A DNA stretch of 25,867 nt from the IMG/VR virus record IMGVR_UViG_3300034104_005696, positions 1 to 25,867 of that record, one strand, 5' to 3'. The notes under the pieces were generated by a model that worked only from the letters and a program-made list of their open reading frames with translations, was not told the DNA's origin and searched no databases. This document shows positions 9,642 through 24,673 of the stretch, piece after piece. Numbering within the stretch: the first letter of the stretch is position 1; every line of letters starts with the position of its first letter. Origin of the DNA: a virus. Lineage: Duplodnaviria; Caudoviricetes. Both the position numbers and the translations under genes were made by a program.

Positions 9642-10922
9642 TCAGCTCCCGAAGGACTGCGAGGCGGGAACGATCCCCTCCTGCATGATCAGGGCGTCGT
9701 CATTGTAAACGACAAAGTCGGCCTCATAGAACACGTCCAGGCGCCACCGCTCGGCCTCCTGTTCCCACTTCCGGTAGGCGCGGACCTTGCGGCACAGGAC
9801 CACCACCAGGTTCCGGGGGTTGGTCAGGAGGCACGGGGCACAGTCGGCCACGTCCAGGACGTAGTCGCCGGCCGTCGTGCTGATCGTGGACTGGCCGAGG
9901 TTCCCCGCGGTGGTGATCACGTTGTGGGAGCTCACGTTCTCCACGCTCACGTCCTCGGTCTCCCCCGTGTCGGTGAAGGTGACCCGGACCACGCGATCGA
10001 GGTTGGCCACGGCGTAGCCGCCGAACAGCGTATCCACCCGGAGCGTGATCGTTCCGTCCCCGTTGTCGGTCACGGTGTCGGCCGAGCTGGTGGAGCCGGT
10101 CAGGGTGTCGAACCCCTGATCCGTCGGGAGCTGGGGGACCAGGATCGGGGGGATCCCGCCGGGCGCATAGCGGCGGCGCTCGGTGAGGGCCTGATCGGTG
10201 AGCTGGGAACCGCCCCCCAGGCTGGTCAGGTACTCGGTGAAGTTGTCGTCCAGGGCGGGGGGACAGAACCAGCGGAGATCCGGATCGTCCCGGAACTGCG
10301 AGGGCATCCGGCGCAACATGGCCGGGTAGAGGGTCCGCGCCCACGCGCTCCCGCGGGTGGTCGTCCGGTAGCCGCCACCGGATCGGCCCTGCTTGAGCCA
10401 CCCGTCCCGCTGGCGCAGGAGGCGATCGAGGCGGGTGGAGCTCCCCAGGGTGGTGTCACCCCGGAGCGCGGCCTTTGCCAGGTCGTTCCCCATGGCCTTC
10501 CCGAACGCTCCCCGCACCTTCCCGTCCAGATCGGGCTCACCGCTGGCGCGGGACTCGGACAGGTCCTCGAGCGTCAGGAACCAGGTGGCCTGGAACTTCT
10601 TGGCGCTGTAGGACTTGTGATCCGTGTCCGGGTGGGTTGCGACGGTCGATCCGCCGTTCTCGCTCACGCCCTCGGTCACCGTGTCGGTGATCTCGATCGT
10701 CGGGAGCTGGCCGGCGCGCTGGTCGCGCATACGGACCGAACACGCGGCGAGCCACCCGGCCTGGGCGACGGTGAGATCCACCAGGCTGTCCACCTGGGCG
10801 CGGTTCATGTAGTCGCCGGTCGCCAGGCTGTCGGTGGTGGGGACTTCCGGGGAGAGGGCCTTACGGACCCCCATTCGGTCAAGGGAGGCGCCAACGCGCT
10901 CCAGGAGGTCGGTGGTAGACAC
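9642..10922 (-). CDS. major capsid protein (HK97 fold, P2/XkdG-like) with beta-rich insertion
   Basis: GTG with GGAG RBS; motifs MNRAQVDSLVD, AMGNDLAKAALRGD, DGWLKQ, MPSQFR, LLTNPRNLVV, EADFVV. Confidence 0.88.
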   Translation of the reverse strand: MSTTDLLERVGASLDRMGVRKALSPEVPTTDSLATGDYMNRAQVDSLVDLTVAQAGWLAACSVRMRDQRAGQLPTIEITDTVTEGVSENGGSTVATHPDTDHKSYSAKKFQATWFLTLEDLSESRASGEPDLDGKVRGAFGKAMGNDLAKAALRGDTTLGSSTRLDRLLRQRDGWLKQGRSGGGYRTTTRGSAWARTLYPAMLRRMPSQFRDDPDLRWFCPPALDDNFTEYLTSLGGGSQLTDQALTERRRYAPGGIPPILVPQLPTDQGFDTLTGSTSSADTVTDNGDGTITLRVDTLFGGYAVANLDRVVRVTFTDTGETEDVSVENVSSHNVITTAGNLGQSTISTTAGDYVLDVADCAPCLLTNPRNLVVVLCRKVRAYRKWEQEAERWRLDVFYEADFVVYNDDALIMQEGIVPASQSFGS

Positions 10923-11010: not shown

Positions 11011-12309
11011 CTACCCGGGCCGGGTGGCGGTGAAGTCGAACGCCGAACCCTTCCACGCGGACCCGTCGGACTTGCGGGCGGTCTCGGGGTCACCGGCCCC
11101 GCGGGGGCGGTTCGGGGTCTCGGCCAGCTTGGCCACGCGCTCGGTGGTGAGGATCAGGGCCTCGGCCAGGCCCACGCGGTGGCCTTCCTTCCCGGGCTCC
11201 CCCACGCCCTTGATCACGGTCTCGAGGCCGTCCACCTTGTCGGTGGCGGGCTTCACGGCCTTGGCGACCATGGCGTCGATCTGCGGGCCGAGGCGCCCCA
11301 CGATCGCGGCGATCATGGTCTCGGGGTCGCTCATGCTCCCGTCCACGCTGGAACCCTGGCCGAGCTGGCGCGGGAGCTCCCCGGTGGGGAGCGCGGCCTG
11401 TGCGGGGCCCATCACGGCGCCCTTGAACACGGCGGCCGAGGCCTCGAGGGCCACGGCCTGGAGGCGGGCGGGGTCGGTGACGCCGGCGGCCTTGGCCACC
11501 TTGACGGCGGTTTCGGCGGCGGCGGTGGCAATTGCGGCGAGCTTGATCGGATCCATGGCGGGGGCCTCGGGGTCGGGGGTGGAGAGGGGGTCGGCGGCCT
11601 TGGCGGCCTTTTCGTTGGCGGTGAGCAGGGCGGACAGGGCCGCGCGGGTAGCCTCGAGGGCCGTAAGCGCGGACTGGATTGTATCCATGTTCGCGGCGCT
11701 GATCACCTTTCCCGCTTTTTGGGCGATCGTCGGGTCGCTCGGGAGACCGATCGGGGCGGCCTTCATGGCCAGGGCCAGGGCGGTGGCGTCCTCGGCCTTG
11801 GTCACCGGGAACCGATCCACCAGGTCCAGAATGTGGGCCCGGAACTGGTCAAGGGCCACGCTGATCGCGGTCCGCTTGTCCACGATCGTGGCGTCCTCCA
11901 GGATGTTCCCGATCACTTCCCACAGGGCGTCGGTGGCCTGCCAGCGGGCGCGGTTCAGGGCCTCGGCGGCCAGGGCGGCGTTGAAGTCCGTAGGCTCCCC
12001 GTCCTTTTTCACGGTGGAGAGTCCCAGGGCCTTCATGGCCATGGCGGGGAGGGCCAGGAGCGGGCCGAACACCCCGCGCCACCAGCTCGAGGTGTCGGGC
12101 CCCGCGCCACCGTGGGCGGCGGTGAAGATCGGGACCTGGGGGGCGGGGGAGTCGGGGTCGGCCTTGGCCACCGAGATCACCCGCTGGTTGGCGCCGGCGC
12201 CCACCAGGGACAGGAACCCGGCGGGCTCCCCGGTCAGGGGGTCCACCTGGGAGGGGTCGGACATCAGGGTGATCACCGTGCGGCCGTCGGCCGTCGGGAG
12301 TCTGGACAT
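11011..12309 (-). CDS. capsid scaffold / protease-associated protein
   Basis: Likely start ATG 12309. N-terminal FLSLVGAGANQ matches the SLV-x-x-x-AN motif of prohead-protease-linked proteins; KAGKVISAAN motif; Ala-rich helical C-terminus; directly before the capsid gene. Confidence 0.7.
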   Translation of the reverse strand: MSRLPTADGRTVITLMSDPSQVDPLTGEPAGFLSLVGAGANQRVISVAKADPDSPAPQVPIFTAAHGGAGPDTSSWWRGVFGPLLALPAMAMKALGLSTVKKDGEPTDFNAALAAEALNRARWQATDALWEVIGNILEDATIVDKRTAISVALDQFRAHILDLVDRFPVTKAEDATALALAMKAAPIGLPSDPTIAQKAGKVISAANMDTIQSALTALEATRAALSALLTANEKAAKAADPLSTPDPEAPAMDPIKLAAIATAAAETAVKVAKAAGVTDPARLQAVALEASAAVFKGAVMGPAQAALPTGELPRQLGQGSSVDGSMSDPETMIAAIVGRLGPQIDAMVAKAVKPATDKVDGLETVIKGVGEPGKEGHRVGLAEALILTTERVAKLAETPNRPRGAGDPETARKSDGSAWKGSAFDFTATRPG

Positions 12310-12320
12310 ACCGGAGGGGT

Positions 12321-12899
12321 TCACGCGGTCACCGTGGGGGAAGGGGGGCGGCGGACAACGACGGGGATCTTGCGGACCACCGCTTGGAAGCTCACGGCGT
12401 TGATCGTCCCGGCCTCCACCGCGCTCCACTCGGGAGACCCGGGATCGAGCTCCACCACCACCACCCAGGCTCCCGGGAAAAAGTGAGGGGATCCGATCTC
12501 GGGGGTGTTCAGGAAGGACTGGACCACGCGGGCGGTGTCCCGGCTGATCTGATCGTGCTGAACGTCCACGCGGCGGGAGTCGGTCAGGAACCCGTGGGCC
12601 AGTTGCTCGAGGTCCTGGGGTAGCATGGCTTCCCCGTGGGCGTCGATCGGGTCCAGGGCCCGGCGGGCCAGGTCGGGGGAGGCGGCCGCGGCGGCCGTCC
12701 AGTCGGGGGCGGTGGCGCCGGCCTTGGCGGCGAGCTCGAGCGCCAGGCCCTCGAGCTCGGCAAACGCCACCGGGTCGAACGGTAGGTAGGCCTCGAGGTA
12801 GATCAGGCCACGATCAAGGCCCCGAACCGCCCCCTTGCGGGTTCGGACCACGCGGCCGGTGATCTGTCGGGCGCCTTCCACGGTGCGATCGAGCTCCAC
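12321..12899 (-). CDS. XkdF-like prohead serine protease
   Basis: LIYLEAYLP, IDAHGE, VDVQHD, VVQSF, PGAWVV, WSAVEAGTINAVSF follow the XkdF-family pattern. Confidence 0.85.
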   Translation of the reverse strand: MELDRTVEGARQITGRVVRTRKGAVRGLDRGLIYLEAYLPFDPVAFAELEGLALELAAKAGATAPDWTAAAAASPDLARRALDPIDAHGEAMLPQDLEQLAHGFLTDSRRVDVQHDQISRDTARVVQSFLNTPEIGSPHFFPGAWVVVVELDPGSPEWSAVEAGTINAVSFQAVVRKIPVVVRRPPSPTVTA

Positions 12900-12917
12900 C
12901 GAGGCGGTATAGCACGA

Positions 12918-13976
12918 TCAGCGGCGGGAGCGCGGCGGGCCTTTTTTCACCAGGTCGGCCACGGCCAGGGCCACCAGTGATCGGCGGGCCAGGAGCGCGG
13001 GCGCCAGGACGGCCACCCGTTCGGGCGCCAGGCCCCCGAGCTCGAGGGCCCGGCGGGCCTGGTCCTCGGTCACCGCGGCCAGGCGCTCGGCCATGGGGGC
13101 CAGGAGCTCGGGGGAGCTCACCCCGCGGGCGTAGTCCTCGAGCTCGAGGACCTGGCCGAGCTCGGACACGTCCCCGGGGGTGAAGGCCCCGTCCGGGCGG
13201 CCGTGGGCCCGGTAGGCCAGGCACCCGGACAGGTCCCACCGGACCAGGAGGGCGGACCCGGGGAGCTGGTAGCGGCGGGCCTTGATCCCGTCGGGGATCC
13301 GGCTGTTCCCGATCCACACGTCGGCCGGGAGCTCCTGGACCAGGTCGGTGGACACGTCGGCCGGAACCAGGTGGAGGGGGAACCATGCGGCCAGGCGCGG
13401 CCAGGCCACCGCGGGCCGGCCCTCGAGCTCCACCAGGCGGACCGCGGGCGCGGCCACGCCCACCAGGCGGTACAGGGCGGCCGCGGCCACCGTCATCCCG
13501 GCCTGGTCCGCGGTGGGGAAGGTTCGGACCGTCCACCGCTCCCCGGTCACCTGGTCGACGTAGGCTCGGCCCCCGTCCTCGAGGCTCGCGGGGGTCACGG
13601 CCTCGAGGCGGCGCCCCATGGCGGCGGGGGACAGGGCGGCCGAGGGCCCCGGGCGTAGTGCGGCCTGGGCGGGCGACGGTGGCGCCGGCGGGGGAGCTCC
13701 ACCCGCCAGGACCTTGGCGCGGTCCAGGAGCGTAGCCGGGGGCGTGGGCGGGGCCCGGTAGGGGTTCCCGTGCGGGGAGGCCTCGGCCATGGCGCCGTCG
13801 TCGGGCGGGGACACGGGGAGCGGGGGATCGAACACTCCCAGGGCGTCGGCCTGGTGTTCCACCCCGTTGATCACGATGATCTGGCCGGCGCCGGTGGCCT
13901 TCCCCCCGCTGATCTTGGTGGTGTAGCCGGCGGGCCAGGAGGGGTCAGGCTTGAACGGTGGGACGGTGGGGGGCAT
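12918..13976 (-). CDS. pseudokinase, degenerate paralog of the kinase domain in the upstream MuF fusion
   Basis: ATG 13976 with GGAGG RBS; C-terminal ~210 aa align colinearly by eye with the MuF kinase domain but lack the catalytic Lys, Glu and Asp. Confidence 0.72.
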   Translation of the reverse strand: MPPTVPPFKPDPSWPAGYTTKISGGKATGAGQIIVINGVEHQADALGVFDPPLPVSPPDDGAMAEASPHGNPYRAPPTPPATLLDRAKVLAGGAPPPAPPSPAQAALRPGPSAALSPAAMGRRLEAVTPASLEDGGRAYVDQVTGERWTVRTFPTADQAGMTVAAAALYRLVGVAAPAVRLVELEGRPAVAWPRLAAWFPLHLVPADVSTDLVQELPADVWIGNSRIPDGIKARRYQLPGSALLVRWDLSGCLAYRAHGRPDGAFTPGDVSELGQVLELEDYARGVSSPELLAPMAERLAAVTEDQARRALELGGLAPERVAVLAPALLARRSLVALAVADLVKKGPPRSRR

Positions 13977-14007
13977 GGTCAGGCCTCCAGTGTGGGGGTG
14001 GTCGGGG

Positions 14008-16464
14008 TCATGGCTCGAGGACGGCCTGAACAAGCCAGTAGCCGGCCGGCGTCTTTTTTGCTGTAAGGACGCGGATCTTTGAACGCATACCCAACAGGAT
14101 CTCCTGTTCGGCGGGGCATTGTGTGAAGTCCTCCACCCAGGCGCCCTTCCCGCCCTTGGGGATCAGGATCTTGAACATCACCGAGTCGCGGGAACCCTTG
14201 AACCGGCTGGCGGCGTCCTCGGCCAGGGACGTGGACCGGAACCCCGGATCGAGGTTGATCCGGCCCTCGGCCTCCCCGGCGGCCCCCTGGAGTAGGGCCT
14301 GGGTCCAGGCGCCCCCCTCGGCCCCGCGCCATACCACCACGTCCTCGGGCATGGTCGAACCGTCGATCGCGGACTGGCGTAGCTTGTCCGCGGCGTTGGC
14401 GGCCTTCCCCGCGCGTAGGTCCCCGTTGATCACGTCATAGGCGCCCCCGGTGTAGTCCCGGAGCTCGGCCTTTTCGGCGGCGTTCATGCGGCGGTGGGGG
14501 ATCAGGTGTTTGTCCCCCCAGGCCTTTGTTTTGGCGTCATACTTCCCGAACTTCTGATCGGCCGCGTTCAGGCGCCGGATCTCGGCCAGGGCCTTCCCCT
14601 TGGCCTCGAGCTTGGCGGTTCGGTCGTCCAGGAGGGCGACGATCGCTCCCCGGTCCGAGTCGGTGATCTCGGTGTCGGCGGCCAGGTAGCGGCCCCACCC
14701 GCCGGCCTTTTTCTCCAGGGCGGTGATCGCCTTGATCTGGTCCTCGAGGCCCTGGATCTCCATGGCCTGATCGACGCCGGCGTCCCGCATGATCCGGGCG
14801 TACCCGGGGTTGGACCCGTCCCCGTACTTCCACCATTCGGACATATCCGCCAGGTGGTGGGGGGACTTCCGGGCGCCTTGGGCGCGGTGGAGGAAGGCGG
14901 CCCCCTGGTCGATCCGGGCGATCCCGCCCCCGGGGAGCTCCACCATGTTGTCCATGGACAGGCCGGCGGCGTCCCAATTCGCGGTCAGGACATCAGCGGC
15001 GAACCCGTCCAGGGCCTTCACGGCCCGGGCCTTGGTCGCGGCCAGGGTGGCCCCCCTGGCGCGGGCCTCGAGGGTCCCCAGGTTGTCCATGATCTCGGAC
15101 GCGTAGGCCAGGCGGCCGTCCTCGGTCCTGAACAGCTCGGACTTGGGGGCCCCGAGGCCGAGATCCCGGTAAAGCCTGTTCGCTACATGCTCCCCGGCGG
15201 CCTGGCCGGGATCCTTGTAGAACTTGACGTAGCGGGCCACCCCGTCGGTCCCCGTGTAGAACCCGCCGTCGTTGGACCCCGCGGGCCCCGCGGTCCGCTG
15301 GTGGAGGATCACCCGGTGGCGTGGCTCGGCGGCGGCCGCGGCGGCCACGGGCTTGGGCGGGCGCGGCTTGGGGGGCGGCTTGGGGGTGGTGGCGTCCACG
15401 TCCCCGAGCGGATCGAGCTCCTGGTGACTGATCGGGGTCCAGGTGACCACGTCCACCGAGGATCGACAATGGAAGTGAAGCGGGGGCCAGGCGATCCCCT
15501 TGGCCTGGAGGTCCTGGGGGGTCAGGAGGGCCCCGGACGGGTCCTCGAGGTCCCGGAGCTTGGGCCACGGGCTGATCGCTTTCCAGTCGTCGGGGTTGTC
15601 GGTGGCCAGGAGCTGATCCCGGAGCTTCACCGCGCCCTTCACGCTGAACCGCTGGCCGTCCAGGCGGCGGCATACGTCGGACGTGCGTTCGTCCAGGGGG
15701 TTGACGTATTCGTACACGGTGGCGCCGGTGGCGGCCATGGCGCCCACGGCCCCGAAGGAACGGGCCCGGGTTGCGACGGTGGCGGCCAGGCCCCGCCAGT
15801 AGGTCCGGGATCGGTCATGCTCGGCGCCGAACGCGGCGGCCAGGGCGTCCCCGGCCTCCACCCGTCCCAGGCCCCCCTGGATCGCCACCTTGTCCACGAT
15901 CGCCAGGAGCTTGGCCGAGTCGAGCTGATCCCCGTAGGCCTTCCCGATCCAGAACGTCCCCGCGTTGGTCAGGCCGTGGATCGCGTCCTGGTCGGGGAGG
16001 GAAAACCCGGCCGTCCACCCCATGGGGGTGGTGATCTCGGACTTCCCCAGGGCGGCCGCGGCGGCCATGTAGCGGCCGAGGGTGGCGGCCTCCTGGGGGT
16101 TGGCGGTGAAGTCGGCCCCGGCCCGCTCGAGCTCATTCTGTAGCTTGTCCAGGCGCCGGCGGGCCTTTTCCTTCCACCGCGGATCGGCGTCGGCCGTGGC
16201 GGCGAGCTCGGCCAGCTCCCGCGCGGTGGCGGTCACGTTCGGGCGGGTTTCGTCCCAGGCCGAGGCCATGAAGGCCTCGAGGTCCCCGGCGATCCCGGTG
16301 TAGACCTTGGGGGTGGCCTTGATCGCCAGGACCTGGCGGATCATCCCGTCCACCACGTCCAGGGCCTTCACGGTGACGTGATCGGCCCCGGTGGCGTCCA
16401 GGTTCCACCGGTCAGCTCGAGGCCCGAAGTAGGCGGCCCGGGCGGCGGGTCCAGTGAGGTCCAC
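14008..16464 (-). CDS. MuF (SPP1 gp7-like) head morphogenesis protein fused to HipA/PI4K-like kinase and VIP2-like ADP-ribosyltransferase
   Basis: MuF: DERTSDVCRRLDG...PPLHFHCRS. Kinase: GSNDGG, YVKF, GEHVA, ANWD...DN, RIDQG. ART: YT...INGDLR, VWRG, FRSTSL, EQEILL (R-STS-ExE). Located right after portal. Confidence 0.88.
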   Translation of the reverse strand: MDLTGPAARAAYFGPRADRWNLDATGADHVTVKALDVVDGMIRQVLAIKATPKVYTGIAGDLEAFMASAWDETRPNVTATARELAELAATADADPRWKEKARRRLDKLQNELERAGADFTANPQEAATLGRYMAAAAALGKSEITTPMGWTAGFSLPDQDAIHGLTNAGTFWIGKAYGDQLDSAKLLAIVDKVAIQGGLGRVEAGDALAAAFGAEHDRSRTYWRGLAATVATRARSFGAVGAMAATGATVYEYVNPLDERTSDVCRRLDGQRFSVKGAVKLRDQLLATDNPDDWKAISPWPKLRDLEDPSGALLTPQDLQAKGIAWPPLHFHCRSSVDVVTWTPISHQELDPLGDVDATTPKPPPKPRPPKPVAAAAAAEPRHRVILHQRTAGPAGSNDGGFYTGTDGVARYVKFYKDPGQAAGEHVANRLYRDLGLGAPKSELFRTEDGRLAYASEIMDNLGTLEARARGATLAATKARAVKALDGFAADVLTANWDAAGLSMDNMVELPGGGIARIDQGAAFLHRAQGARKSPHHLADMSEWWKYGDGSNPGYARIMRDAGVDQAMEIQGLEDQIKAITALEKKAGGWGRYLAADTEITDSDRGAIVALLDDRTAKLEAKGKALAEIRRLNAADQKFGKYDAKTKAWGDKHLIPHRRMNAAEKAELRDYTGGAYDVINGDLRAGKAANAADKLRQSAIDGSTMPEDVVVWRGAEGGAWTQALLQGAAGEAEGRINLDPGFRSTSLAEDAASRFKGSRDSVMFKILIPKGGKGAWVEDFTQCPAEQEILLGMRSKIRVLTAKKTPAGYWLVQAVLEP

Positions 16465-16467
16465 GGG

Positions 16468-18513
16468 CTACACCCCCAGGTGGGGGGAGGCCTCGAGGGC
16501 CGAGGCCTCGGCCCCGAGCTCGGCCACCAGGGCCTCCCGGAGCGCCAGGAGCTCGGCCAGGTGGTTCCCGGTGACCAGGGACTTGACCACCGGGCCAGGC
16601 TTCCCAGGCTTCCCGCCAGGCGCCGGCGGCTTCCCCTTCCCACCAGGCGGCGGGGGGCCTCCAGGAGCTCCACCCGCGGCGGCGGTGGCCTCGGCGGCCT
16701 CGGCCTTGGCCTGGCGATCGGCCTCGGCCGCGGCGTCGGCCTTGGCGGCGGCCTCGGCCACCAGCTCCCCCAGGGGCTTGTTCGGGTCCAGGGTGGCGGC
16801 CAGGAGGGCCACGGTCAGGGACAGGGGGCGATCCCCCCAGGGCTCGGTGATCAGGGTCACGGCCTCCCCGGTGATCTTCGAATACAGGCGGGCCATGGCG
16901 TTGGGAGAGATCCCGCCGGCCTGGACCATGGGGCCGAGGCTGGCCAGGGCGGCCGTATCGTCCCCGGTGGTGGCGCCCTTGATCTTGAACGCCCACAGGT
17001 TGATCCCCATACGGGGGAAGATCACCCGGTTGAACAGGGCTTCCCACCGGCCACGCCGGATCGGCGTAAAAACCTGTTCCTCCCCGATCGCGCGGGCGGT
17101 GTCGGCCGCGGCCCGGTTGCTTTCCGCTTCCGAGTCCCCGAAGTAGATCCCCCCCAGGCGGAACGCGGCCCGGATCCGGGTCGGGGCCTGGCCGAGTAGG
17201 GAGTCGCGGCCCTGGTAGATCCCGGTAGGGAGCTCGGTGGCCAGTGACTCGAGGGCCATCCTGGGGGGCGCGTCCTTTGTTTCGTCCAGGGGGTCCCCGG
17301 TGGCGGCGGTCTCGGCCTCGATCGGGATCACGTCCCAGGCATGATCCCGGCCTCGAGCTCCCCCGTTCAGCTTGTCCGCCAGGTCGGCGGTGGAGGACGG
17401 GCGCCAGGTCCCGCCGGCCACCATCAGGAGCTTGACCCCGATCGGGGCGTTGTCGAACCAGTCGACCACCAGCTCGGCCGCGGACCTGGCGGCCCGGACG
17501 TGGGGGATCGAGCCGATCCAGCGGGGGACCCCGTAGGGGGTGGAGGGATCGTAGATCCGGCGGATCACCAGCTCGGTGGCCTCCAGGCTGTTCCCCTCGG
17601 GGTCGGTCCCCCAGGGCTCGGCCTGGATCGCGCCGTTCCTCCAGTTGACGTGGCGGGGATCGGCGTAGGACTTGAAAAAGACCGTCCGGCCTTCCTTCAC
17701 CTGGACAAACAGGCGGAACCGGCGCCACCGCTGGACGATCACCAGCTCCCCCGAGTCGGGGTGGCGGATCGGTTCCTCCACCAGGACGGGTAGGCCCTCG
17801 GGGCCCATTCGGACCGTGGCGGCCGGTACATGCTCCAGGCTGGCCTCCCGGCCGGTCCGGTCCCGGAGGACTTCGATCGCGCCCCACCCCATGGTTTCCA
17901 CGTCGCGATCCACCTTGTCGATCAGGGCCTCGAGGCCTTCCTGGTGGGCCGCGGCCAGGAACAGGAGCAGGGCGGACCGCTCGGCCTTGGCCTCGGCGGG
18001 TACCTCGAGCTCCTGGCCGGTGGTCGGATCCTTGGTGTCGAACAGGGGGACCAGCTCATAGCCGTGGCCCCCGATGTTCACGGCCATGGCGTCCACCGCG
18101 GCGGGTAGGGTCTCGGACTCTCCCACGGCCTGGCACAGGAGGATCGGATCGTAGGGCGGGGGGAGGATCTGGCCGGCCTCGGCCAGGAAGGACCAGGTGG
18201 TGGCCGAGTCGGGGATCTGGCGGCTGGCGGCCACCACGTCCAGGGCCCGGCCGGGGACCTTGGGGAGCGTCCCCGGCGTCCCCGAGCTCGGGACCTGGCC
18301 CGGGCCGGCGTCATAGGCCCCGCCCTCCAGGAGCTTCCTGGACAGGCCCCACCCCATGGCGGCCGCGCGGGCGCGGGCGGTCAGCGGGAGCTCGGGGGCG
18401 GGCTCGAGGATCACGCGGGGGGCGCGGGCGCTCGAGGCCACCGGTTCCCCGGCCAGCTCCCCGGACGTGTGGACCCGGTCGGTGGAAGTCTGGAACGTGC
18501 GGGGGGTAGTCAT
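16468..18513 (-). CDS. portal protein (PBSX-like)
   Basis: Follows terminase with ATGA overlap; LPPPYDP, ETMGWGAIEVLRD, LEHVPAATVR, YGVPRWIG, FDNAPIG, NRAAADTA motifs. Confidence 0.9.
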   Translation of the reverse strand: MTTPRTFQTSTDRVHTSGELAGEPVASSARAPRVILEPAPELPLTARARAAAMGWGLSRKLLEGGAYDAGPGQVPSSGTPGTLPKVPGRALDVVAASRQIPDSATTWSFLAEAGQILPPPYDPILLCQAVGESETLPAAVDAMAVNIGGHGYELVPLFDTKDPTTGQELEVPAEAKAERSALLLFLAAAHQEGLEALIDKVDRDVETMGWGAIEVLRDRTGREASLEHVPAATVRMGPEGLPVLVEEPIRHPDSGELVIVQRWRRFRLFVQVKEGRTVFFKSYADPRHVNWRNGAIQAEPWGTDPEGNSLEATELVIRRIYDPSTPYGVPRWIGSIPHVRAARSAAELVVDWFDNAPIGVKLLMVAGGTWRPSSTADLADKLNGGARGRDHAWDVIPIEAETAATGDPLDETKDAPPRMALESLATELPTGIYQGRDSLLGQAPTRIRAAFRLGGIYFGDSEAESNRAAADTARAIGEEQVFTPIRRGRWEALFNRVIFPRMGINLWAFKIKGATTGDDTAALASLGPMVQAGGISPNAMARLYSKITGEAVTLITEPWGDRPLSLTVALLAATLDPNKPLGELVAEAAAKADAAAEADRQAKAEAAEATAAAGGAPGGPPPPGGKGKPPAPGGKPGKPGPVVKSLVTGNHLAELLALREALVAELGAEASALEASPHLGV

Positions 18514-20330
18514 GCGGCTTCTCGCTCCCGAATGGGGAAGGGGTCGGAATAGAACCCGGGCGGGGGTGGTCCGAGGACCTTAGCCCGGGCCTGGTTCCGG
18601 TGGCGCATCCACCGGCGGATCACGGTGATCGCCATCCACAGGCTCATAACCGTGTCGTCGTGGGCCTCCCGGCCGAGGCCGTGGGCCTCGAGGACCAGGG
18701 TATCGATCCGCTGGCGCTCGGCCTCGGTGGCGTTGGCCAGGTCGATCCGGCCGAGCTCGAACGCCAGGGCCATCCCAGGTACGCCCTCCCATAGGGAGCT
18801 TTTGGCCTTGGTGGTCGTATGTCCCACGATCGGGAGGCCGGGGACGGCCCGCAGCTCGATCTCGTGAATCCGCTGGGCGGCGTTCCGTTCGATCACGACG
18901 TAGTCCGCCCCCGTGATCTCCTGTTCCATGATCACCCGGGCCCGGAGCTCGGCGGGGGTCAGGCCTCGGCGCCGGTAGATCCGGCGGACCTGCAAGCGAT
19001 CCCCCGCGGTCAGGCCCACGGTCACCCCACAGGTGAAGTCCGAGTCCTTGATCATGGCTTCCCGCTCGTTGTCCACGATCCCGAGGTCCCAGGCGGTCAC
19101 CAGGACCTGGTAGGCGCTCGAGTTGCCGGCCCGCTCGGCCAGCTCCACCGGGTCCCAGGTACTGATCGACACGTCATAGGCGATCCGCGGGGGCGGGGAG
19201 TAGAGGAACCCCAGGCCCTGGCCCCGGTTCCTGGCGGCTTGTAGCCACTCCCACCGGAAAATAGCGGTCTCATTGTCGATCGGCTGGTTCAGGTATTCCT
19301 GGGCGAACGCCAGGGATCCGATCTCCCGGCGCCGGATCTCCAGGGACTCGGCGGACCAGTATTCGGGCCACAGGATGATCGGGCCTTCCGGGTCGGGGAG
19401 GCCGGCGGTGGAGTAGCGCGCGGCGTACCGGCGCTTGAGCCACCCGGGGAAGTCCTCGGGGGACAGGAGGCGGGAGAGCAGGCTGTCGGCGTGTAGGATC
19501 GTCCCCACCACGATCGTGGCCAGGCGGCCGGCCACGCCGGTGGGGATCAGGGCCCGGGTGAACCACCGCCGGAGCTTGACCCGCTGGCCCTCGGTCTCCA
19601 CGGCCTGATCGTTCTCCAGGTCGTCCACCAGGATCAGGGACGGGCGGCGGCCCTTGCGTACCAGGCCTCGGACCTTGGACCCGGCCCCCATGGCTCGGAT
19701 GATCGTACCGTTGGCCAGCTCCAGGTGGGTCTCGGTCCACTTCCGGCGGTCCTGGCGGGTCGGGGCCTGGTTCCCGTAGGCGGCGATCAGGCCCTCGTTG
19801 GCCTCGAGCTCGTCCCGTATGTCCATCACGCGGGCGCGGGCCTGGTCGATCGTGTCGGACACGATCACGATGTAGGGGGCGGCGGGCTCCCCGGTGATCG
19901 CGTCCAGGAAGTGAGGCATAGACCGCCACTCGAGGGCGGCCATAAGCGGGACCCCCAGGACCATGGCGGTGGACTTCCCGTGGCCTCGGGGGCACGCGAT
20001 AGCGGCCGAGGTCCGGCGCTCCCCCTCCACTTCCCGGCGCCACAGGATGGCCTCAACGTCGGCGTACAGGGCGCGGTGAAAGTCGCCGGCGCCGGCGGTG
20101 AACAGGTGGGACAGGTGGCGGCCCGTCCAGGCCTCGATCCGGGTGGAGCTGGCGCGGCGCTCGAGCTCCCGAAGGGTCAGGATGGACTGGATCAGGAGGG
20201 ACCTGGCCAGGTCCTCCCCCTCGAGGGCGGGGGCCTTGGCCTTGGCCTTGGCCCTCGAGGGCCTGGCCTTCCCCGAGCTCGGGGGCGTGCGGCGGCCCCC
20301 GGCGGGTCGGTCAGGCTGAACGATCGGCAC
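18510..20330 (-). CDS. terL: terminase large subunit
   Basis: Walker A CPRGHGKST, Walker B LILVDDLE, coupling motif VGT, FAQEYLNQP, nuclease AWDLG...SDFT...HDDTVMSL. Confidence 0.95.
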   Translation of the reverse strand: MPIVQPDRPAGGRRTPPSSGKARPSRAKAKAKAPALEGEDLARSLLIQSILTLRELERRASSTRIEAWTGRHLSHLFTAGAGDFHRALYADVEAILWRREVEGERRTSAAIACPRGHGKSTAMVLGVPLMAALEWRSMPHFLDAITGEPAAPYIVIVSDTIDQARARVMDIRDELEANEGLIAAYGNQAPTRQDRRKWTETHLELANGTIIRAMGAGSKVRGLVRKGRRPSLILVDDLENDQAVETEGQRVKLRRWFTRALIPTGVAGRLATIVVGTILHADSLLSRLLSPEDFPGWLKRRYAARYSTAGLPDPEGPIILWPEYWSAESLEIRRREIGSLAFAQEYLNQPIDNETAIFRWEWLQAARNRGQGLGFLYSPPPRIAYDVSISTWDPVELAERAGNSSAYQVLVTAWDLGIVDNEREAMIKDSDFTCGVTVGLTAGDRLQVRRIYRRRGLTPAELRARVIMEQEITGADYVVIERNAAQRIHEIELRAVPGLPIVGHTTTKAKSSLWEGVPGMALAFELGRIDLANATEAERQRIDTLVLEAHGLGREAHDDTVMSLWMAITVIRRWMRHRNQARAKVLGPPPPGFYSDPFPIREREAA

Positions 20331-21175: not shown

Positions 21176-22849
21176 TCACGCTCCCAGGACGGCGGGCCCG
21201 CCCTCGAGGACCAGGGCGCCGGGTCCAGGGTCGATCATGGCCTCCCGGGCCCACGCGGTCCACCGGTGGCGGATCACGTCACACCAGGCGGGGGAGAGCT
21301 CACACAGGACCGCGCGGCGGCCCGTGCGGGCGGCGGCCAGTAGGGTGGTCCCCCCACCGCCGAACAGGTCCACCACCAGGTGGTCGGGGTCGGTGGAGGC
21401 CTCGATCAGCTCCTGGATCAGGCCGATCGGCTTGGCGGCATTGTGGACCCGCTCGGCCCCGGTCACCCGGTTGTACCGTAGCAGGGCGCGGCGGCCGTCC
21501 TCGAGCTCCACCCCGTCCGGGTCCTCAGCCACCAGGTTCCCCCGCTCGGGGCCGTCGTCCCCGTCGGTGGCGGGGAACCCGTGGATCACGTTGGACTTGA
21601 GGACCATACGCGCGCCCCCGCTCGGGGCGCTGAACATGCGGGTACGTTCGGGGACGTTGGAGAAAAACCCGATCTCCTCGTAACTATTCGCCCATTGACT
21701 CCCGAGGCCCCCGCCCCCCTTGTCCCAGATCAGCTTGTTCTTGGCGGTGAGCTTGACCAGGCCGGCGGCGTCCCACCAGGCGGCCCACGATCGCCAGTCG
21801 CAACAAACGTAGGCGTGCGCCCACGGCCTCCCGACGCGGCGGATCATGTCCAGGATCGAGCGGAAAAACGGGCGGATCAGCTTATCGTCCGCGATATCGG
21901 CCCCCAGGCCGGTGGAGCTCCCGTAGATCGCGAACGGGGGATCGGTGAACACCAGATCGGCCAGGTCGGTGAACCCGCTGGCGGCGTCCCCACCGAGGGC
22001 CAGGGCCAGGGTGGTCACGCTGGTACAGTCCCCGCACACCAGGCGGTGGGGGCCGAGCTGGTAGACCGTCCCGGGCTTGCTATCGGCCACGCGCGGGGGC
22101 GGGGGACACGCCGGCGGGGCCACGGCCCTGGGGTCGGGCTTCCCCTCGGCGCGCTTCACCAGCTCGAGGACTTCCACGGCGCTGAACCCGCTTTCCTCGG
22201 CAATACGGGCGGCCGTGTCCCCGGCGGCGGACCAGTCGGCCATGATCGCGGCCAGGCCGTCGGTCCGCCAGGTGGCTTCCTCCTGGATCCGGTTGTCGGC
22301 CACCAGGTCCCGGACGGCGTCCTCCCAGGTCCCGCCCTTGAACCGGACGGGGACGTAGCCGGGGCCAGGAGCTCCCGGGATCGTGAACTCGGGATCGGCC
22401 TTGAGGATCGCCAGCATGGACAGGCGCCGGCCGTGGCCCTTCACAATCCGACGCGTCGGCCAGTGAGCGGTCAGAACGGTGGTGAACCCGTGGCGCCGGA
22501 TCAGGGCGGCCAGGCCCTTCACCTGGCGGGCCGGGTGGTTCCGGGGGTTGTCCTCCCAGGGGGTCAGGTCGGACAGGGGCCACCAGGCGGCCACCACGGT
22601 GGTGGGGTCGGCCCCGTCCTCGAGCTGGTGGGGCTTCACGTCGGCCAGGAGCTGGACCCCGGGATCCTGGTGGGCCGGGCGCTCGGGGTCGGGCTCGAGG
22701 TCCACGTCGGTCCCCTCGGTCTCCAGGAGCTCGGGGGGTGGAGCTCCACCAGGCGCCGGGGCGGCGGGGGTGGGCGTCGGGGGGCGCCGGGGGGCGCCCT
22801 TGGGGGGGTTCGGGGCGTCCCCGGTAGGCTTCCGTCGGTCGGTGGTCAT
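21176..22849 (-). CDS. ParB-like domain + beta-class amino (N6-A/N4-C) DNA methyltransferase
   Basis: ParB-like LTPWEDNPRNH...IVKGHGRR...ADNRIQE; MTase HRLVCGDC, DLVFTDPPF, LIWDK, HNAAKP, VVDLFGGGGTT, CELSPAWCDVI; ATG 22849 with GGGAG RBS. Confidence 0.9.
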   Translation of the reverse strand: MTTDRRKPTGDAPNPPKGAPRRPPTPTPAAPAPGGAPPPELLETEGTDVDLEPDPERPAHQDPGVQLLADVKPHQLEDGADPTTVVAAWWPLSDLTPWEDNPRNHPARQVKGLAALIRRHGFTTVLTAHWPTRRIVKGHGRRLSMLAILKADPEFTIPGAPGPGYVPVRFKGGTWEDAVRDLVADNRIQEEATWRTDGLAAIMADWSAAGDTAARIAEESGFSAVEVLELVKRAEGKPDPRAVAPPACPPPPRVADSKPGTVYQLGPHRLVCGDCTSVTTLALALGGDAASGFTDLADLVFTDPPFAIYGSSTGLGADIADDKLIRPFFRSILDMIRRVGRPWAHAYVCCDWRSWAAWWDAAGLVKLTAKNKLIWDKGGGGLGSQWANSYEEIGFFSNVPERTRMFSAPSGGARMVLKSNVIHGFPATDGDDGPERGNLVAEDPDGVELEDGRRALLRYNRVTGAERVHNAAKPIGLIQELIEASTDPDHLVVDLFGGGGTTLLAAARTGRRAVLCELSPAWCDVIRHRWTAWAREAMIDPGPGALVLEGGPAVLGA

Positions 22850-22880
22850 GGTCAAGGCTCCCGCTGTTTAGAGCTGAAAC

Positions 22881-23347: not shown

Positions 23348-23541
23348 TCGGGCCTCGGGTAGATCCTGGCGTGGGGGAAGGGTCGGAACTGGCGGGCGGC
23401 CTTGAGGGCGCGATCGGCGGTGGCCTGGGATCCGTAAACCTTGGCGCTGGTCACCACCAGGGTCCGGCCCGGGTCCCCCTTCCACGGGGCGATCCAGACG
23501 CCGGGCTCGAGCTCCACCACCGCGGCCACGGCGCCGGTCAC
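23344..23541 (-). CDS. hypothetical protein (65 aa)
   Basis: GTGA overlap at start and ATGA overlap at end; VVELEPGVWIAPWKGDPGRTL reads as a globular protein. Confidence 0.7.
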   Translation of the reverse strand: MTGAVAAVVELEPGVWIAPWKGDPGRTLVVTSAKVYGSQATADRALKAARQFRPFPHARIYPRPE

Positions 23542-24080
23542 CGGGGACCCCAGGGGGTCGGGGTCACCCCGTTGGGAAGGCGGGAGGGGTGGCGGGGAGC
23601 TCCCCGCGCGGTCACTCCCAGGGACTCGAGGGCGGCCCCGTTCGCTTCCACGATCGCGGTCACGATCTTGACCCGTCGGGCGGCGTCCCGGTTGTCCCAG
23701 TCCCCCCAGGCGGCGATCACCCGGGAACAGGACCGGGCGGCGTGGGCCAGGGCGGCGTCGTTGGCCTCCCCGATCGGGTCCTCCCCGGCGCTGTTCCTGG
23801 CCAGGCTGAACAGGACCCGGGGATCGGTGGCGCGCCAGGCAAACAGGTTCAGCATGTAGAACCCGCCGGCCCCCAGGGCGCGGGAGTAGGCGCGGCAACG
23901 TCGGATCGTGTGATCGTCGTCCTTTTCGTCGGCGGTGGAGGGGTTCAGGCCGATCCATGCGATCGAGGGCCTGGAGGGGTCCCACACCCGCCACAGGGTG
24001 TAGCGCCAGCGGCGGCACGGGGACAGGTAGGCCCCCCGGTCCTCGGGGAGCTCGGGGGCGGGGTCGGTCGGGGTGGTCAT
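23538..24080 (-). CDS. DUF1643 family protein
   Basis: ATG 24080; LSPCRRWRYTLWRVWD, WIGLNPSTADE..DDHTIRRC, NLFAWRATDP, VIAAWG, PRHP. Confidence 0.9.
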   Translation of the reverse strand: MTTPTDPAPELPEDRGAYLSPCRRWRYTLWRVWDPSRPSIAWIGLNPSTADEKDDDHTIRRCRAYSRALGAGGFYMLNLFAWRATDPRVLFSLARNSAGEDPIGEANDAALAHAARSCSRVIAAWGDWDNRDAARRVKIVTAIVEANGAALESLGVTARGAPRHPSRLPNGVTPTPWGPR

Positions 24081-24673
24081 GGTCGGGGCCTCGGGGTGGT
24101 GGTGGAGGGGGCCGTCGGGCGGCCCCGGTACAGGGTCTCCCAGGCCTGGCGGTCCTGTTCCTGGATCGTGACGTGTCGGGGGTCCTCGGCGCGGTAGGTC
24201 AGCTCCCCCACCAGGCCGGGGAGGCGGAACCGGATCAGGCCCTGGCCCACCGGGTAGCCGTGGGCCCGGAGCTCGGTGGCCTCGGGGAGCCACGCGCGGA
24301 TCCGGTCCTCGAGCTCGAGGGCGTGGGCGGCCTGGTCGGCCCGGGCCCGGCGGTGGCGCTCGAGCTCCCCCAGGTCCCGGATCTCGGTCACGGGGAAGGC
24401 CCCGGGGCGCTTGTCCACCGGACAGTGAAAGCGGCCCGTCCTGGCCCCGTCCTCGGTCTCCCCGATCCCCCACCTGGCGTACAGGTGGCGGGCGGCCCCG
24501 AGCTCGGGGATCTCGGTGTCCTCGGGGCCTTCCTCGGCCTGGTACTCGAGCTCGGCCCGGACGGCGGCCACGGCCAGGGCCTCGGGGTGGTGGCCCCGGA
24601 CGTACCAGGAGCTCGGGGGTTCCTCCCAGGTCAGATCGACCACGGCGGGGAGCGGGGGCGTGGGGGTGGTCAT
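24077..24673 (-). CDS. hypothetical protein (198 aa)
   Basis: ATG 24673 with ATGA overlaps on both sides and GAGG RBS. Confidence 0.7.
   Translation of the reverse strand: MTTPTPPLPAVVDLTWEEPPSSWYVRGHHPEALAVAAVRAELEYQAEEGPEDTEIPELGAARHLYARWGIGETEDGARTGRFHCPVDKRPGAFPVTEIRDLGELERHRRARADQAAHALELEDRIRAWLPEATELRAHGYPVGQGLIRFRLPGLVGELTYRAEDPRHVTIQEQDRQAWETLYRGRPTAPSTTTPRPRP

What the first reader, a model, noticed from the sequence alone, without database searches (positions are those of the whole stretch)
12918..15300. Active kinase / pseudokinase paralog pair: a dead kinase copy sits in the immunity slot behind a MuF toxin
Seen: the gene starting 31 nt after the MuF fusion aligns block by block with the MuF kinase domain. 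Pairs (active/partner): NDGGFY/EDGGRAY, YVKF/WTVRTF, QAAGEHVANRLYRDLGLGAP/QAGMTVAAAALYRLVGVAAP, DGRLAYA/EGRPAVA, AADVLTANWD/PADVWIGNSR, ELPG/QLPG, RIDQGAAFLHRAQG/RWDLSGCLAYRAHG, DMSE/DVSE. The structural scaffold is kept, but the ATP-binding Lys is Arg, the alphaC Glu is Thr, and the catalytic Asp and following Asn are lost; only the Mg-binding Asp remains. Established: MuF polymorphic toxins are usually followed by an immunity gene. Inference: the intact 352-aa pseudokinase (own GGAGG RBS) is an antitoxin, decoy, allosteric regulator or packaging partner for a virion-delivered kinase. I do not know of a described phage system with this layout.
Basis: partly seen in the sequence, partly recalled or inferred. 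Interest (0 to 1): 0.88.

Follow-up and report, generated by a model that had tools for sequence, protein, structure and literature searches.

The report
Dead kinase outlives its phage toxin
A lake phage carries, right behind a head protein tipped with a kinase and an ADP-ribosyltransferase, a conserved copy of that kinase family stripped of its catalytic residues; related phages keep this copy even when the head protein has no kinase, so it is likely a non-catalytic partner of the head protein and not the kinase's antidote.

Summary
The 352-aa gene behind the MuF–kinase–ART gene encodes a kinase-fold domain that lacks the Lys, αC-Glu, catalytic Asp and Mg-binding Asn (profile E=1.3e-6 against 0.024 for the best of 2,000 shuffles; best fold CtkA, Z 9.9).

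The cognate-antitoxin reading does not hold. The pseudokinase is an old family tied to one head-gene clade. It lies two genes behind MuF, whole or cut by a contig end, in three loci whose MuF carries a HExxH peptidase and no kinase; a fourth shows its first 18 codons. It is a domain inside ten large proteins, nine MuF-type and nine without an intact kinase. None of 80 other viral kinase loci has a dead copy nearby. A tree rejects a local duplication (p-AU 1e-6).

In relatives a ~100-aa ORF fills the immunity slot; here a slot-like segment is fused to the pseudokinase in place of the family's N-terminal repeat.

Best reading: a former MuF domain kept as a cargo-independent, non-catalytic MuF partner. 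Binding is untested. Intact-plus-degenerate kinase tandems recur in phage effector proteins (10 of 146). New variant of a known kind.

The parts
14008..16464 (-). MuF-kinase-ADP-ribosyltransferase fusion gene, 818 aa
   Evidence: ORF; Pfam Phage_Mu_F and ADPrib_exo_Tox; N-terminus matches homologue P0006
15457..15885 (-). MuF domain (residues 194-336)
   Evidence: PF04233 E=1.5e-6, 29.3 bits against a cut-off of 29.6; TIGR01641 E=4.6e-9
14569..15312 (-). Kinase domain of HipA/CtkA type with all five catalytic residues (K414, E425, D498, N506, D519); activity predicted
   Evidence: 120 of 120 listed homologues score as motif-intact; weak HipA_C/HipA_2 hits in relatives, below Pfam cut-offs
14059..14526 (-). 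ADP-ribosyltransferase domain (residues 647-802) with STS (744) and EQE (786) motifs
   Evidence: PF03496 E=4.5e-22; motif places
13984..13988 (-). GGAGG ribosome-binding site of the partner gene
   Evidence: sequence, 7 nt before ATG 13976
12918..13976 (-). Partner gene, 352 aa: slot-like N-terminal segment fused to a pseudokinase domain
   Evidence: ORF with GC3 0.88-0.99 in five blocks; pN/pS 0.44 over 13148-13578 against a relative in run X6
13692..13976 (-). N-terminal ~95 residues: not the family's helical repeat; resembles the N-terminal extension of P0131; candidate immunity ORF for the MuF cargo (inferred)
   Evidence: local score 83 against a maximum of 60 in 1,000 shuffles; no hit of the repeat profile here; BLASTP E=3e-4
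12942..13646 (-). Pseudokinase domain (residues ~111-345); catalytic positions read R151, T162, R226, G230, D248
   Evidence: profile test, model and fold search, Atlas TM 0.82 to a MuF/ART cluster, family alignment
12321..12899 (-). XkdF-type prohead protease, the downstream neighbour in the clade
   Evidence: PF14550 E=1.8e-10; same place in L011, L012, L094
16468..18513 (-). Portal protein; marks the head-gene clade used for the locus survey
   Evidence: phrog_12 E=3.3e-4; 45-59% identity to L004, L005, L011, L012
18510..20330 (-). Terminase large subunit
   Evidence: phrog_38 E=8e-56
9642..10922 (-). Likely major capsid protein
   Evidence: phrog_1623 'virion structural protein' E=2.9e-33

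Best explanation
The partner gene encodes a kinase-fold domain without its catalytic residues that likely began as an inner domain of this phage clade's MuF head protein and likely still works as a non-catalytic MuF-associated adaptor, whichever enzyme MuF carries. Shown: the fold and residue loss; its fixed place between the MuF unit and the prohead protease; its presence with kinase-ART or peptidase cargo; its occurrence inside MuF chains; purifying selection. Inferred: cassettes of cargo plus small ORF were swapped in behind MuF and left the domain as a free gene; the protein binds MuF or the portal vertex and helps load, hold or eject the extended MuF. Also inferred: in this phage a deletion fused the small slot ORF, the likelier immunity candidate, to the pseudokinase.
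For: Peptidase loci keep it: L006, L011, L012, and its first 18 codons in L004. It sits inside ten large proteins, nine with a MuF N-domain and nine with no intact kinase; P0148 is MuF plus pseudokinase only; locus L091 shows such a fusion behind terminase and portal. Its N-terminal repeat recurs in several copies between MuF and the domain in these fusions. Stand-alone members form one group (SH 99-100) beside the less decayed MuF-fused forms. A same-clade phage with a short cargo-less MuF has no copy in 88 kb, 86% complete. 24 stand-alone members of 273-359 aa, median identity 34%, keep the fold core; pN/pS 0.44, Fisher p=0.01.
Against: No binding, virion or expression data. The domain is dispensable for a head (L094/L095, one phage). 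The direction of change is not rooted: P0148 nests among stand-alone forms and may be a later fusion. Cargo swapping on the MuF tree needs three changes, but starred branches force only one. Peptidase contigs are 7-29% complete where assessed, so a kinase elsewhere in those genomes is not excluded. At least two more loci probably pair it with kinase-ART (P0002/P0124, P0009/P0129; inferred only from equal contig lengths). P0144 has an intact kinase directly before it. The slot-ORF link rests on one protein.
Confidence: 0.45

Rival explanations
1. It is a broad decoy: a dead kinase that would bind and block HipA/CtkA-type kinases of the host or of competing phages, kept as orphan immunity whether or not the phage has its own kinase.
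For: Independence from the phage's own cargo is what orphan immunity predicts. The kinase family is common in phages (331 matching stretches in viral contigs; 14 cultured-phage records). Phage orphan antitoxin-like counter-defence is known (PMC11825919, abstract start seen). Prophage kinases act in defence (KKP, PMC12328805, passages seen).
Against: It is confined to one head-gene clade and one position in a head operon. It is found fused inside MuF. It is absent from 80 other kinase loci. No PADLOC match.
Confidence: 0.18
2. It is itself a delivered effector: a substrate-trapping or target-masking dead kinase that would bind a host protein after injection, like any other domain of a polyvalent protein.
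For: In fusions it stands among cargo domains, before a C-terminal domain. Eight of ten large-protein forms carry Asn at the catalytic Asp position, a classic trap change (the reading is my own knowledge). Polyvalent-protein domains are proposed to be injected effectors (PMC5512222, passages seen).
Against: Stand-alone forms lose that Asn motif and have no evident packaging domain. Most conserved residues look structural and several are shared with the intact kinases.
Confidence: 0.17
3. It is the cognate antitoxin or allosteric regulator (Fam20A-like) of the adjacent MuF kinase.
For: Adjacent in this window and in the X6 relative; probably adjacent in two more loci (equal contig lengths); in tandem with an intact kinase in P0144. 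Intact-plus-degenerate tandems occur in 10 of 146 proteins. Fam20C/Fam20A share the fold group (rows 25, 32, 49; Fam20A's role from abstracts of PMC5413348 and PMC5865150).
Against: Kept in three full kinase-less loci plus one start. Nine of ten large-protein forms have no intact kinase in the chain. 0 of 80 kinase loci and one complete genome lack it. The pseudokinase tree mixes kinase and peptidase loci, and sisterhood with the kinase is rejected. It is far longer than the <150-aa ORFs typical of MuF immunity (PMC5576092, passages seen).
Confidence: 0.13
4. It is a decaying relic of an old cargo cassette with no present function.
For: Catalytic residues are gone; pN/pS (0.44) is higher than the kinase's (0.17); the window's copy lacks the family's N-terminal repeat; one clade member lacks the gene.
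Against: 24 intact reading frames at a median 34% identity with 43 columns conserved in at least 80% of rows; significant excess of synonymous change; own ribosome-binding site; normal codon bias.
Confidence: 0.05

Closest known systems
MuF polymorphic toxins with a downstream small immunity ORF (Jamet et al. 2017, PMC5576092; passages read)
   Same: MuF gene directly behind the portal, with C-terminal enzymes; relatives have a 101-114 aa ORF right behind it.
   Different: A kinase cargo is not named there ('kinase' 0 occurrences). The gene behind MuF here is 352 aa, and a conserved pseudokinase follows the slot ORF whatever the cargo.
Polyvalent proteins and MuF-fused ARTs of phages (Iyer et al., PMC5512222 and PMC9503650; passages read)
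   Same: Multi-enzyme head-associated proteins, modular cargo, Alt/VIP2-type ART fused to MuF, an inactive domain noted inside phage Mu MuF.
   Different: The kinases described there lack the C-terminal subdomain; this family keeps a helical C-lobe. No free-standing or tandem pseudokinase appears in the passages seen.
HipA-family kinases, HipBA and HipBST (PMC8262856; passages read) and H. pylori CtkA (PDB 3akj)
   Same: Fold (CtkA Z 9.9; HipA 4pu3 Z 6.9) and, in the MuF kinase, the core motifs. In HipBST the antitoxin HipS is homologous to a part of HipA.
   Different: HipS matches the non-catalytic N-subdomain, not a whole dead kinase. No HTH antitoxin here. Pfam HipA hits stay below cut-off. 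Context is a phage head operon.
Fam20A/Fam20C pseudokinase-kinase pair (abstract starts of PMC5413348, PMC5865150) and JAK JH2-JH1 (recalled)
   Same: Dead kinase beside or in tandem with an intact paralogue; Fam20 shares the atypical fold group.
   Different: Eukaryotic. Fam20A binds ATP and serves its kinase; this family has lost the nucleotide-binding residues and mostly occurs without a kinase.
KKP kinase-kinase-phosphatase module of prophage Pf6 (PMC12328805; passages read)
   Same: Two kinase-like genes side by side in a phage.
   Different: Both KKP kinases form the toxin and a phosphatase is the antitoxin; it is an accessory defence module, not a head gene.

Membership tests
MuF polymorphic toxin locus | MuF domain gene directly downstream of the portal in the packaging module | tested here: met
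   Portal ends 16468, MuF starts 16464; PF04233, TIGR01641 and PHROG hits
MuF polymorphic toxin locus | C-terminal enzyme domain that varies among relatives | tested here: met
   Kinase-ART here; HExxH peptidase in L004, L005, L006, L011, L012; none in L094
MuF polymorphic toxin locus | Separate small (<150 aa) ORF directly downstream | tested here: not met
   The next gene is 352 aa; a slot-like segment forms its N-terminus. Met in four peptidase loci and in L001, L002
MuF polymorphic toxin locus | Toxicity, and packaging into virions | not testable with these tools
   Needs expression and virion proteomics
Cognate immunity protein of the MuF kinase | Occurs with its toxin and is exchanged with it | tested here: not met
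   Present in 3 full kinase-less loci plus one start; absent from 80 kinase loci
Cognate immunity protein of the MuF kinase | Binds and neutralises the toxin | not testable with these tools
   Needs co-expression and binding assays
Pseudokinase (sequence definition) | Protein-kinase-like fold | tested here: met
   Profile homology; CtkA Z 9.9, rmsd 4.5, 186 aligned; Atlas nearest named clusters HipA_2 at 0.93 and 0.92
Pseudokinase (sequence definition) | Loss of catalytic Lys, catalytic Asp or Mg-binding residues | tested here: met
   0 of 24 stand-alone members keep Lys, Glu, Asp or Asn (Lys column gapped in 16); 13 of 24 keep the DFG-type Asp; 12 of 12 intact controls keep all five
Pseudokinase (sequence definition) | No phosphotransfer in vitro | not testable with these tools
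   Some pseudokinases catalyse other reactions (SelO, SidJ: reference titles seen in PMC13519141)
HipA/CtkA-like kinase (MuF cargo domain) | Gly-rich loop, Lys, catalytic and Mg-binding motifs | tested here: met
   GSNDGG, K414, E425, D498, N506, D519; assignment of roles by analogy to HipA, from my own knowledge
HipA/CtkA-like kinase (MuF cargo domain) | Score above a curated HipA family cut-off | tested here: inconclusive
   No hit for the window's domain; relatives reach HipA_C E=4.5e-5, below cut-off
HipBST-type toxin-antitoxin module | HTH HipB and N-subdomain HipS genes beside the kinase | tested here: not met
   Neighbours are portal, pseudokinase and protease
Fam20A/JH2-type allosteric pseudokinase | Stays with an intact kinase and binds it | tested here: inconclusive
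   Adjacent here and in P0144, but 9 of 10 large-protein forms and the peptidase loci lack a kinase; binding untested

The most novel reading that the evidence does not exclude
Tailed phages have repeatedly built kinase-pseudokinase pairs into their virion-delivered MuF effectors, and one dead lineage became a free gene that acts as a dominant-negative brake or decoy for HipA/CtkA-type kinases: its own, the host's or a rival phage's. That would be a JAK- or Fam20A-like control logic inside a phage particle, and a toxin fold recycled as immunity.
Probability: 0.25. Interest if true: 0.82.

Novelty: new variant of a known kind. Interest (0 to 1): 0.56.

Why it matters
MuF effectors are thought of as an enzyme plus a small antidote gene. 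This clade adds a third, constant member: a selected pseudokinase that outlasts cargo swaps and appears either inside MuF or as its own gene. It offers a handle on an open question, how extended MuF proteins are loaded, kept quiet and ejected. It also points to an unannotated phage kinase family: cultured phages such as Pseudomonas phage Dolphis carry the intact domain under 'ADP-ribosyltransferase' or 'hypothetical' labels. Intact-plus-degenerate tandems recur in that family. If a decoy role held, it would be a new kind of phage counter-defence.

Tried and rejected
Read-through fusion to the protease: the partner's TGA is in frame with the XkdF ORF, 18 nt apart. Rejected: the 11 homologues aligned end at about the same place, and in L011 and L012 the two genes are in different frames. 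Frameshifted N-terminus: no other frame of the window carries the family's repeat; the X6 contig over 13118-14329 has only two compensating gaps. Recent duplication of the window's kinase: rejected by AU test. No hit for the partner in Pfam, PHROGs, NCBIfam, PADLOC, PDB sequences or cultured phages. Partner-pattern scans of viral contigs found nothing, although L011 and L012 hold it, so these scans are insensitive. The genome-contig scan returned only an intact kinase (L089). The N-terminal 79-95 residues gave no loci and no usable Atlas hit. No complex model and no model of the MuF kinase were obtained, so binding between partner and cargo stays open. A Foldseek search of PDB was not run. No RNA holder listed. 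No sigma-70 promoter match and one chance-level terminator. Earlier findings of the scan: four look-ups, nothing. Paper searches that found no description of a phage or MuF-linked pseudokinase in their listings; subscription journals and supplements were not seen.
Full report
Setting. The window is a 25.9-kb virus record, 72% G+C, found in lake-water runs. The minus strand carries a head module: terminase 18510-20330, portal 16468-18513, MuF fusion 14008-16464, partner 12918-13976, XkdF-type protease 12321-12899, a scaffold-like ORF 11011-12429, a likely capsid gene 9642-10922, and further down a tail sheath. The MuF protein has a MuF domain (194-336), an unannotated middle domain (~385-632) and an ADP-ribosyltransferase (647-802).

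The observation. Coordinates, the 31-nt gap, the GGAGG site and the motif pairs are as stated. Pairwise BLASTP alone gives E=0.12, so I tested by profile. The middle domain had 167 homologues among 8,000 scored candidates; 120 were listed. A profile of 119 of them, without the window's own, scores the partner at E=1.3e-6; the best of 2,000 shuffles reached 0.024. A profile of 12 partner-family proteins found 680 proteins at E<=0.001 among 1.84 billion, 27 at <=1e-30, and its tail is made of motif-intact kinases. The partner model is middling (pLDDT 59, four sequences), yet its best match among 48,161 chains is CtkA (Z 9.9), then MavQ (7.8), with PI4K, Fam20, CotH and HipA lower. The Atlas's own model aligns with TM 0.82 to a MuF/ART cluster. 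K414, E425, D498, N506, D519 read R, T, R, G, D in the partner.

It is a real, selected gene. Among 24 stand-alone members, none keeps Lys, Glu, catalytic Asp or Asn, and 13 keep the last Asp; 12 of 12 intact controls keep all five. I chose these 24 for full length, leaving out fragments, weaker hits, P0131, L006 and the duplicate L012. They run 273-359 aa at 24-75% identity, median 34%. Against a relative in run X6, the partner shows pN/pS 0.44 (Fisher p=0.01) and the kinase 0.17. These counts use the listed differences only: 40 of 46, and the 30 listed for the kinase stretch, from single low-depth contigs.

It does not follow the kinase. I fetched loci by MuF, portal, capsid and kinase queries. 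In the window's head clade (portal 44-59% identical where aligned), L006, L011 and L012 have MuF with a HExxH peptidase-like cargo and no kinase hit, then an ORF of 101-104 aa, then the pseudokinase. In L006 the contig end cuts it; in L011 and L012 protease, scaffold and capsid follow. L004 shows the same order and ends 18 codons into a protein identical there to P0128. L005, L009, L010 and L090 end too early to tell. L094/L095, one phage of the clade by capsid and protease, has a short MuF, no cargo and no pseudokinase in 88 kb. Conversely, none of the best 80 of 331 viral kinase matches has a degenerate copy within 5 kb; 64 have at least 1.5 kb behind the kinase ORF, and none belongs to this clade. 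A complete genome with MuF-kinase-ART has no match to the partner profile. Limits: the peptidase viral contigs are 7-29% complete, so a distant kinase gene is not excluded. Two further kinase-ART pairings (P0002/P0124, P0009/P0129) are inferred only from equal contig lengths.

Where it came from. Ten large proteins among the top hits hold the same module inside one chain. Six have a Pfam MuF hit, five below cut-off; three more align with the MuF N-domain; P0153 shows none. Only P0144 also has an intact kinase, directly before the module; P0148 is MuF plus pseudokinase alone. These forms are less decayed: eight of ten have Asn for the catalytic Asp. The family's N-terminal helical repeat occurs several times between MuF and the domain in most of them. 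In trees, stand-alone members plus P0148 form one group (SH 99 in 54 rows, FastTree; SH-aLRT 100 in 22 rows), next to the fused forms. The window's kinase groups with other intact kinases, and forcing it together with the partner is rejected (p-AU 1.1e-6). P0128, from the peptidase-type phage, nests with P0124 and P0129. On a MuF N-domain tree the cargo label needs three changes, but support is weak. The trees are unrooted; 'fused first, split later' is the simpler reading of the decay gradient, not a shown order.

The immunity slot. Jamet et al. report that 89.4% of 191 MuF toxin genes are followed by an ORF under 150 aa (PMC5576092, passages). The four peptidase loci have such ORFs, related to each other (4 of 6 pairs at or above the best of 500 shuffles or nearly so) and unrelated to the window's N-terminus. 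L001 and L002, kinase-ART loci of other clades, have 76-78 aa ORFs. In the window, residues 1-95 do not match the repeat profile but match the N-terminal extension of P0131, which precedes an intact repeat plus pseudokinase (score 83, maximum 60 in 1,000 shuffles). I infer that a slot ORF was fused to the pseudokinase and the repeat lost. The nearest relative, P0122 (66%), keeps the repeat. This rests on one protein.

Mechanism. A constant, non-catalytic, MuF-fusable domain in a head operon, absent where MuF has no cargo, fits best a MuF-associated adaptor for loading, holding or ejecting extended MuF (0.45). Most conserved residues look structural; W198 and R234 are specific to the dead family and may close the nucleotide site (inference). 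Rivals: broad kinase decoy (0.18), delivered binding effector (0.17), cognate antitoxin or allosteric partner (0.13), relic (0.05). No binding, virion or expression evidence is in hand.

Wider theme. Among the 146 new proteins, ten carry an intact and a degenerate kinase in one chain, eight carry two intact and two carry two degenerate; all 120 proteins carry one intact domain. The set was picked by a degenerate profile, so it is enriched. The degenerate copies fall in several places on the tree, suggesting repeated origins. Three cultured phages hold one intact domain and no dead copy on the same strand within 4 kb.

Comparison. MuF toxins, polyvalent proteins and MuF-ART fusions are described (PMC5576092, PMC5512222, PMC9503650, PMC3482391; passages read). 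The polyvalent kinases there lack the C-terminal subdomain, unlike this family. HipBST uses a HipA N-subdomain homologue as antitoxin (PMC8262856, passages). Fam20A is the classic dead activator (abstract starts). KKP pairs two active kinases (PMC12328805, passages). Five searches listed nothing on a phage or MuF-linked pseudokinase; the library lacks most subscription journals and I read no supplements.

Verdict. A real and apparently undescribed phage pseudokinase family, but a cargo-independent member of a MuF module, not the dead twin and antidote of this kinase. New variant of a known kind; interest 0.56.

Noticed in passing
P0144, P0166, P0170, P0173, P0174, P0176, P0205, P0260, P0261, P0276: Phage effector proteins with an intact kinase and a degenerate kinase in one chain; the dead copies fall in several tree positions.
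   Followed up: partly
L004:8805-9149, L006:3918-4223, L011:7680-7994, L012:11475-11786: A family of ~100-aa ORFs directly behind MuF-HExxH peptidase cargo; candidate peptidase immunity proteins. L011's had no NCBIfam hit.
   Followed up: partly
L001:1813-2049, L002:4299-4529: Similar-looking 76-78 aa ORFs behind MuF-kinase-ART in other head clades; candidate ART or kinase immunity.
   Followed up: no
P0144, P0145, P0151, L091 C-terminal ~450 aa; L089:5479-8118 C-terminal part: A conserved C-terminal domain without Pfam hit follows the (pseudo)kinase in MuF fusions; likely an unnamed enzyme cargo.
   Followed up: no
P0144-P0161, between MuF and the kinase-like domain: A ~50-100 aa helical repeat in 2-6 copies; the same unit starts the stand-alone pseudokinases. 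No family match.
   Followed up: partly
window 13979-14011 (-): A 10-codon mini-ORF starts in the MuF stop (ATGA overlap), holds the GGAGG site and ends 2 nt before the partner's ATG; possible translational coupling or remnant of a slot gene start.
   Followed up: no
window 12899-12920 (-): Partner stop and protease ORF are in frame, 18 nt apart, with no clear ribosome-binding site; not conserved in L011 or L012.
   Followed up: yes
window 11011-12429 and 16353-16320 (-): Repeated hydrophobic-x-Lys-Ala/small motifs in the scaffold-like protein and the MuF N-terminus; possible prohead-protease sites (recalled analogy).
   Followed up: no
L127:2060-5728, L128, L129: Cultured phages Dolphis, ECML-606-1 and DSL-LC01 carry an intact, unannotated kinase domain of this family in very large proteins; tractable models.
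   Followed up: partly
L185, L202, L203: Two neighbouring ORFs each with an intact kinase domain.
   Followed up: no
window 21176-22855 and 23538-24473 (-): ParB-like domain fused to an N6/N4 DNA methylase, and a DUF1643 gene, upstream of the terminase.
   Followed up: no
L094:7603-9336: Scaffold-like protein with an inserted cysteine-rich repeat stretch.
   Followed up: no
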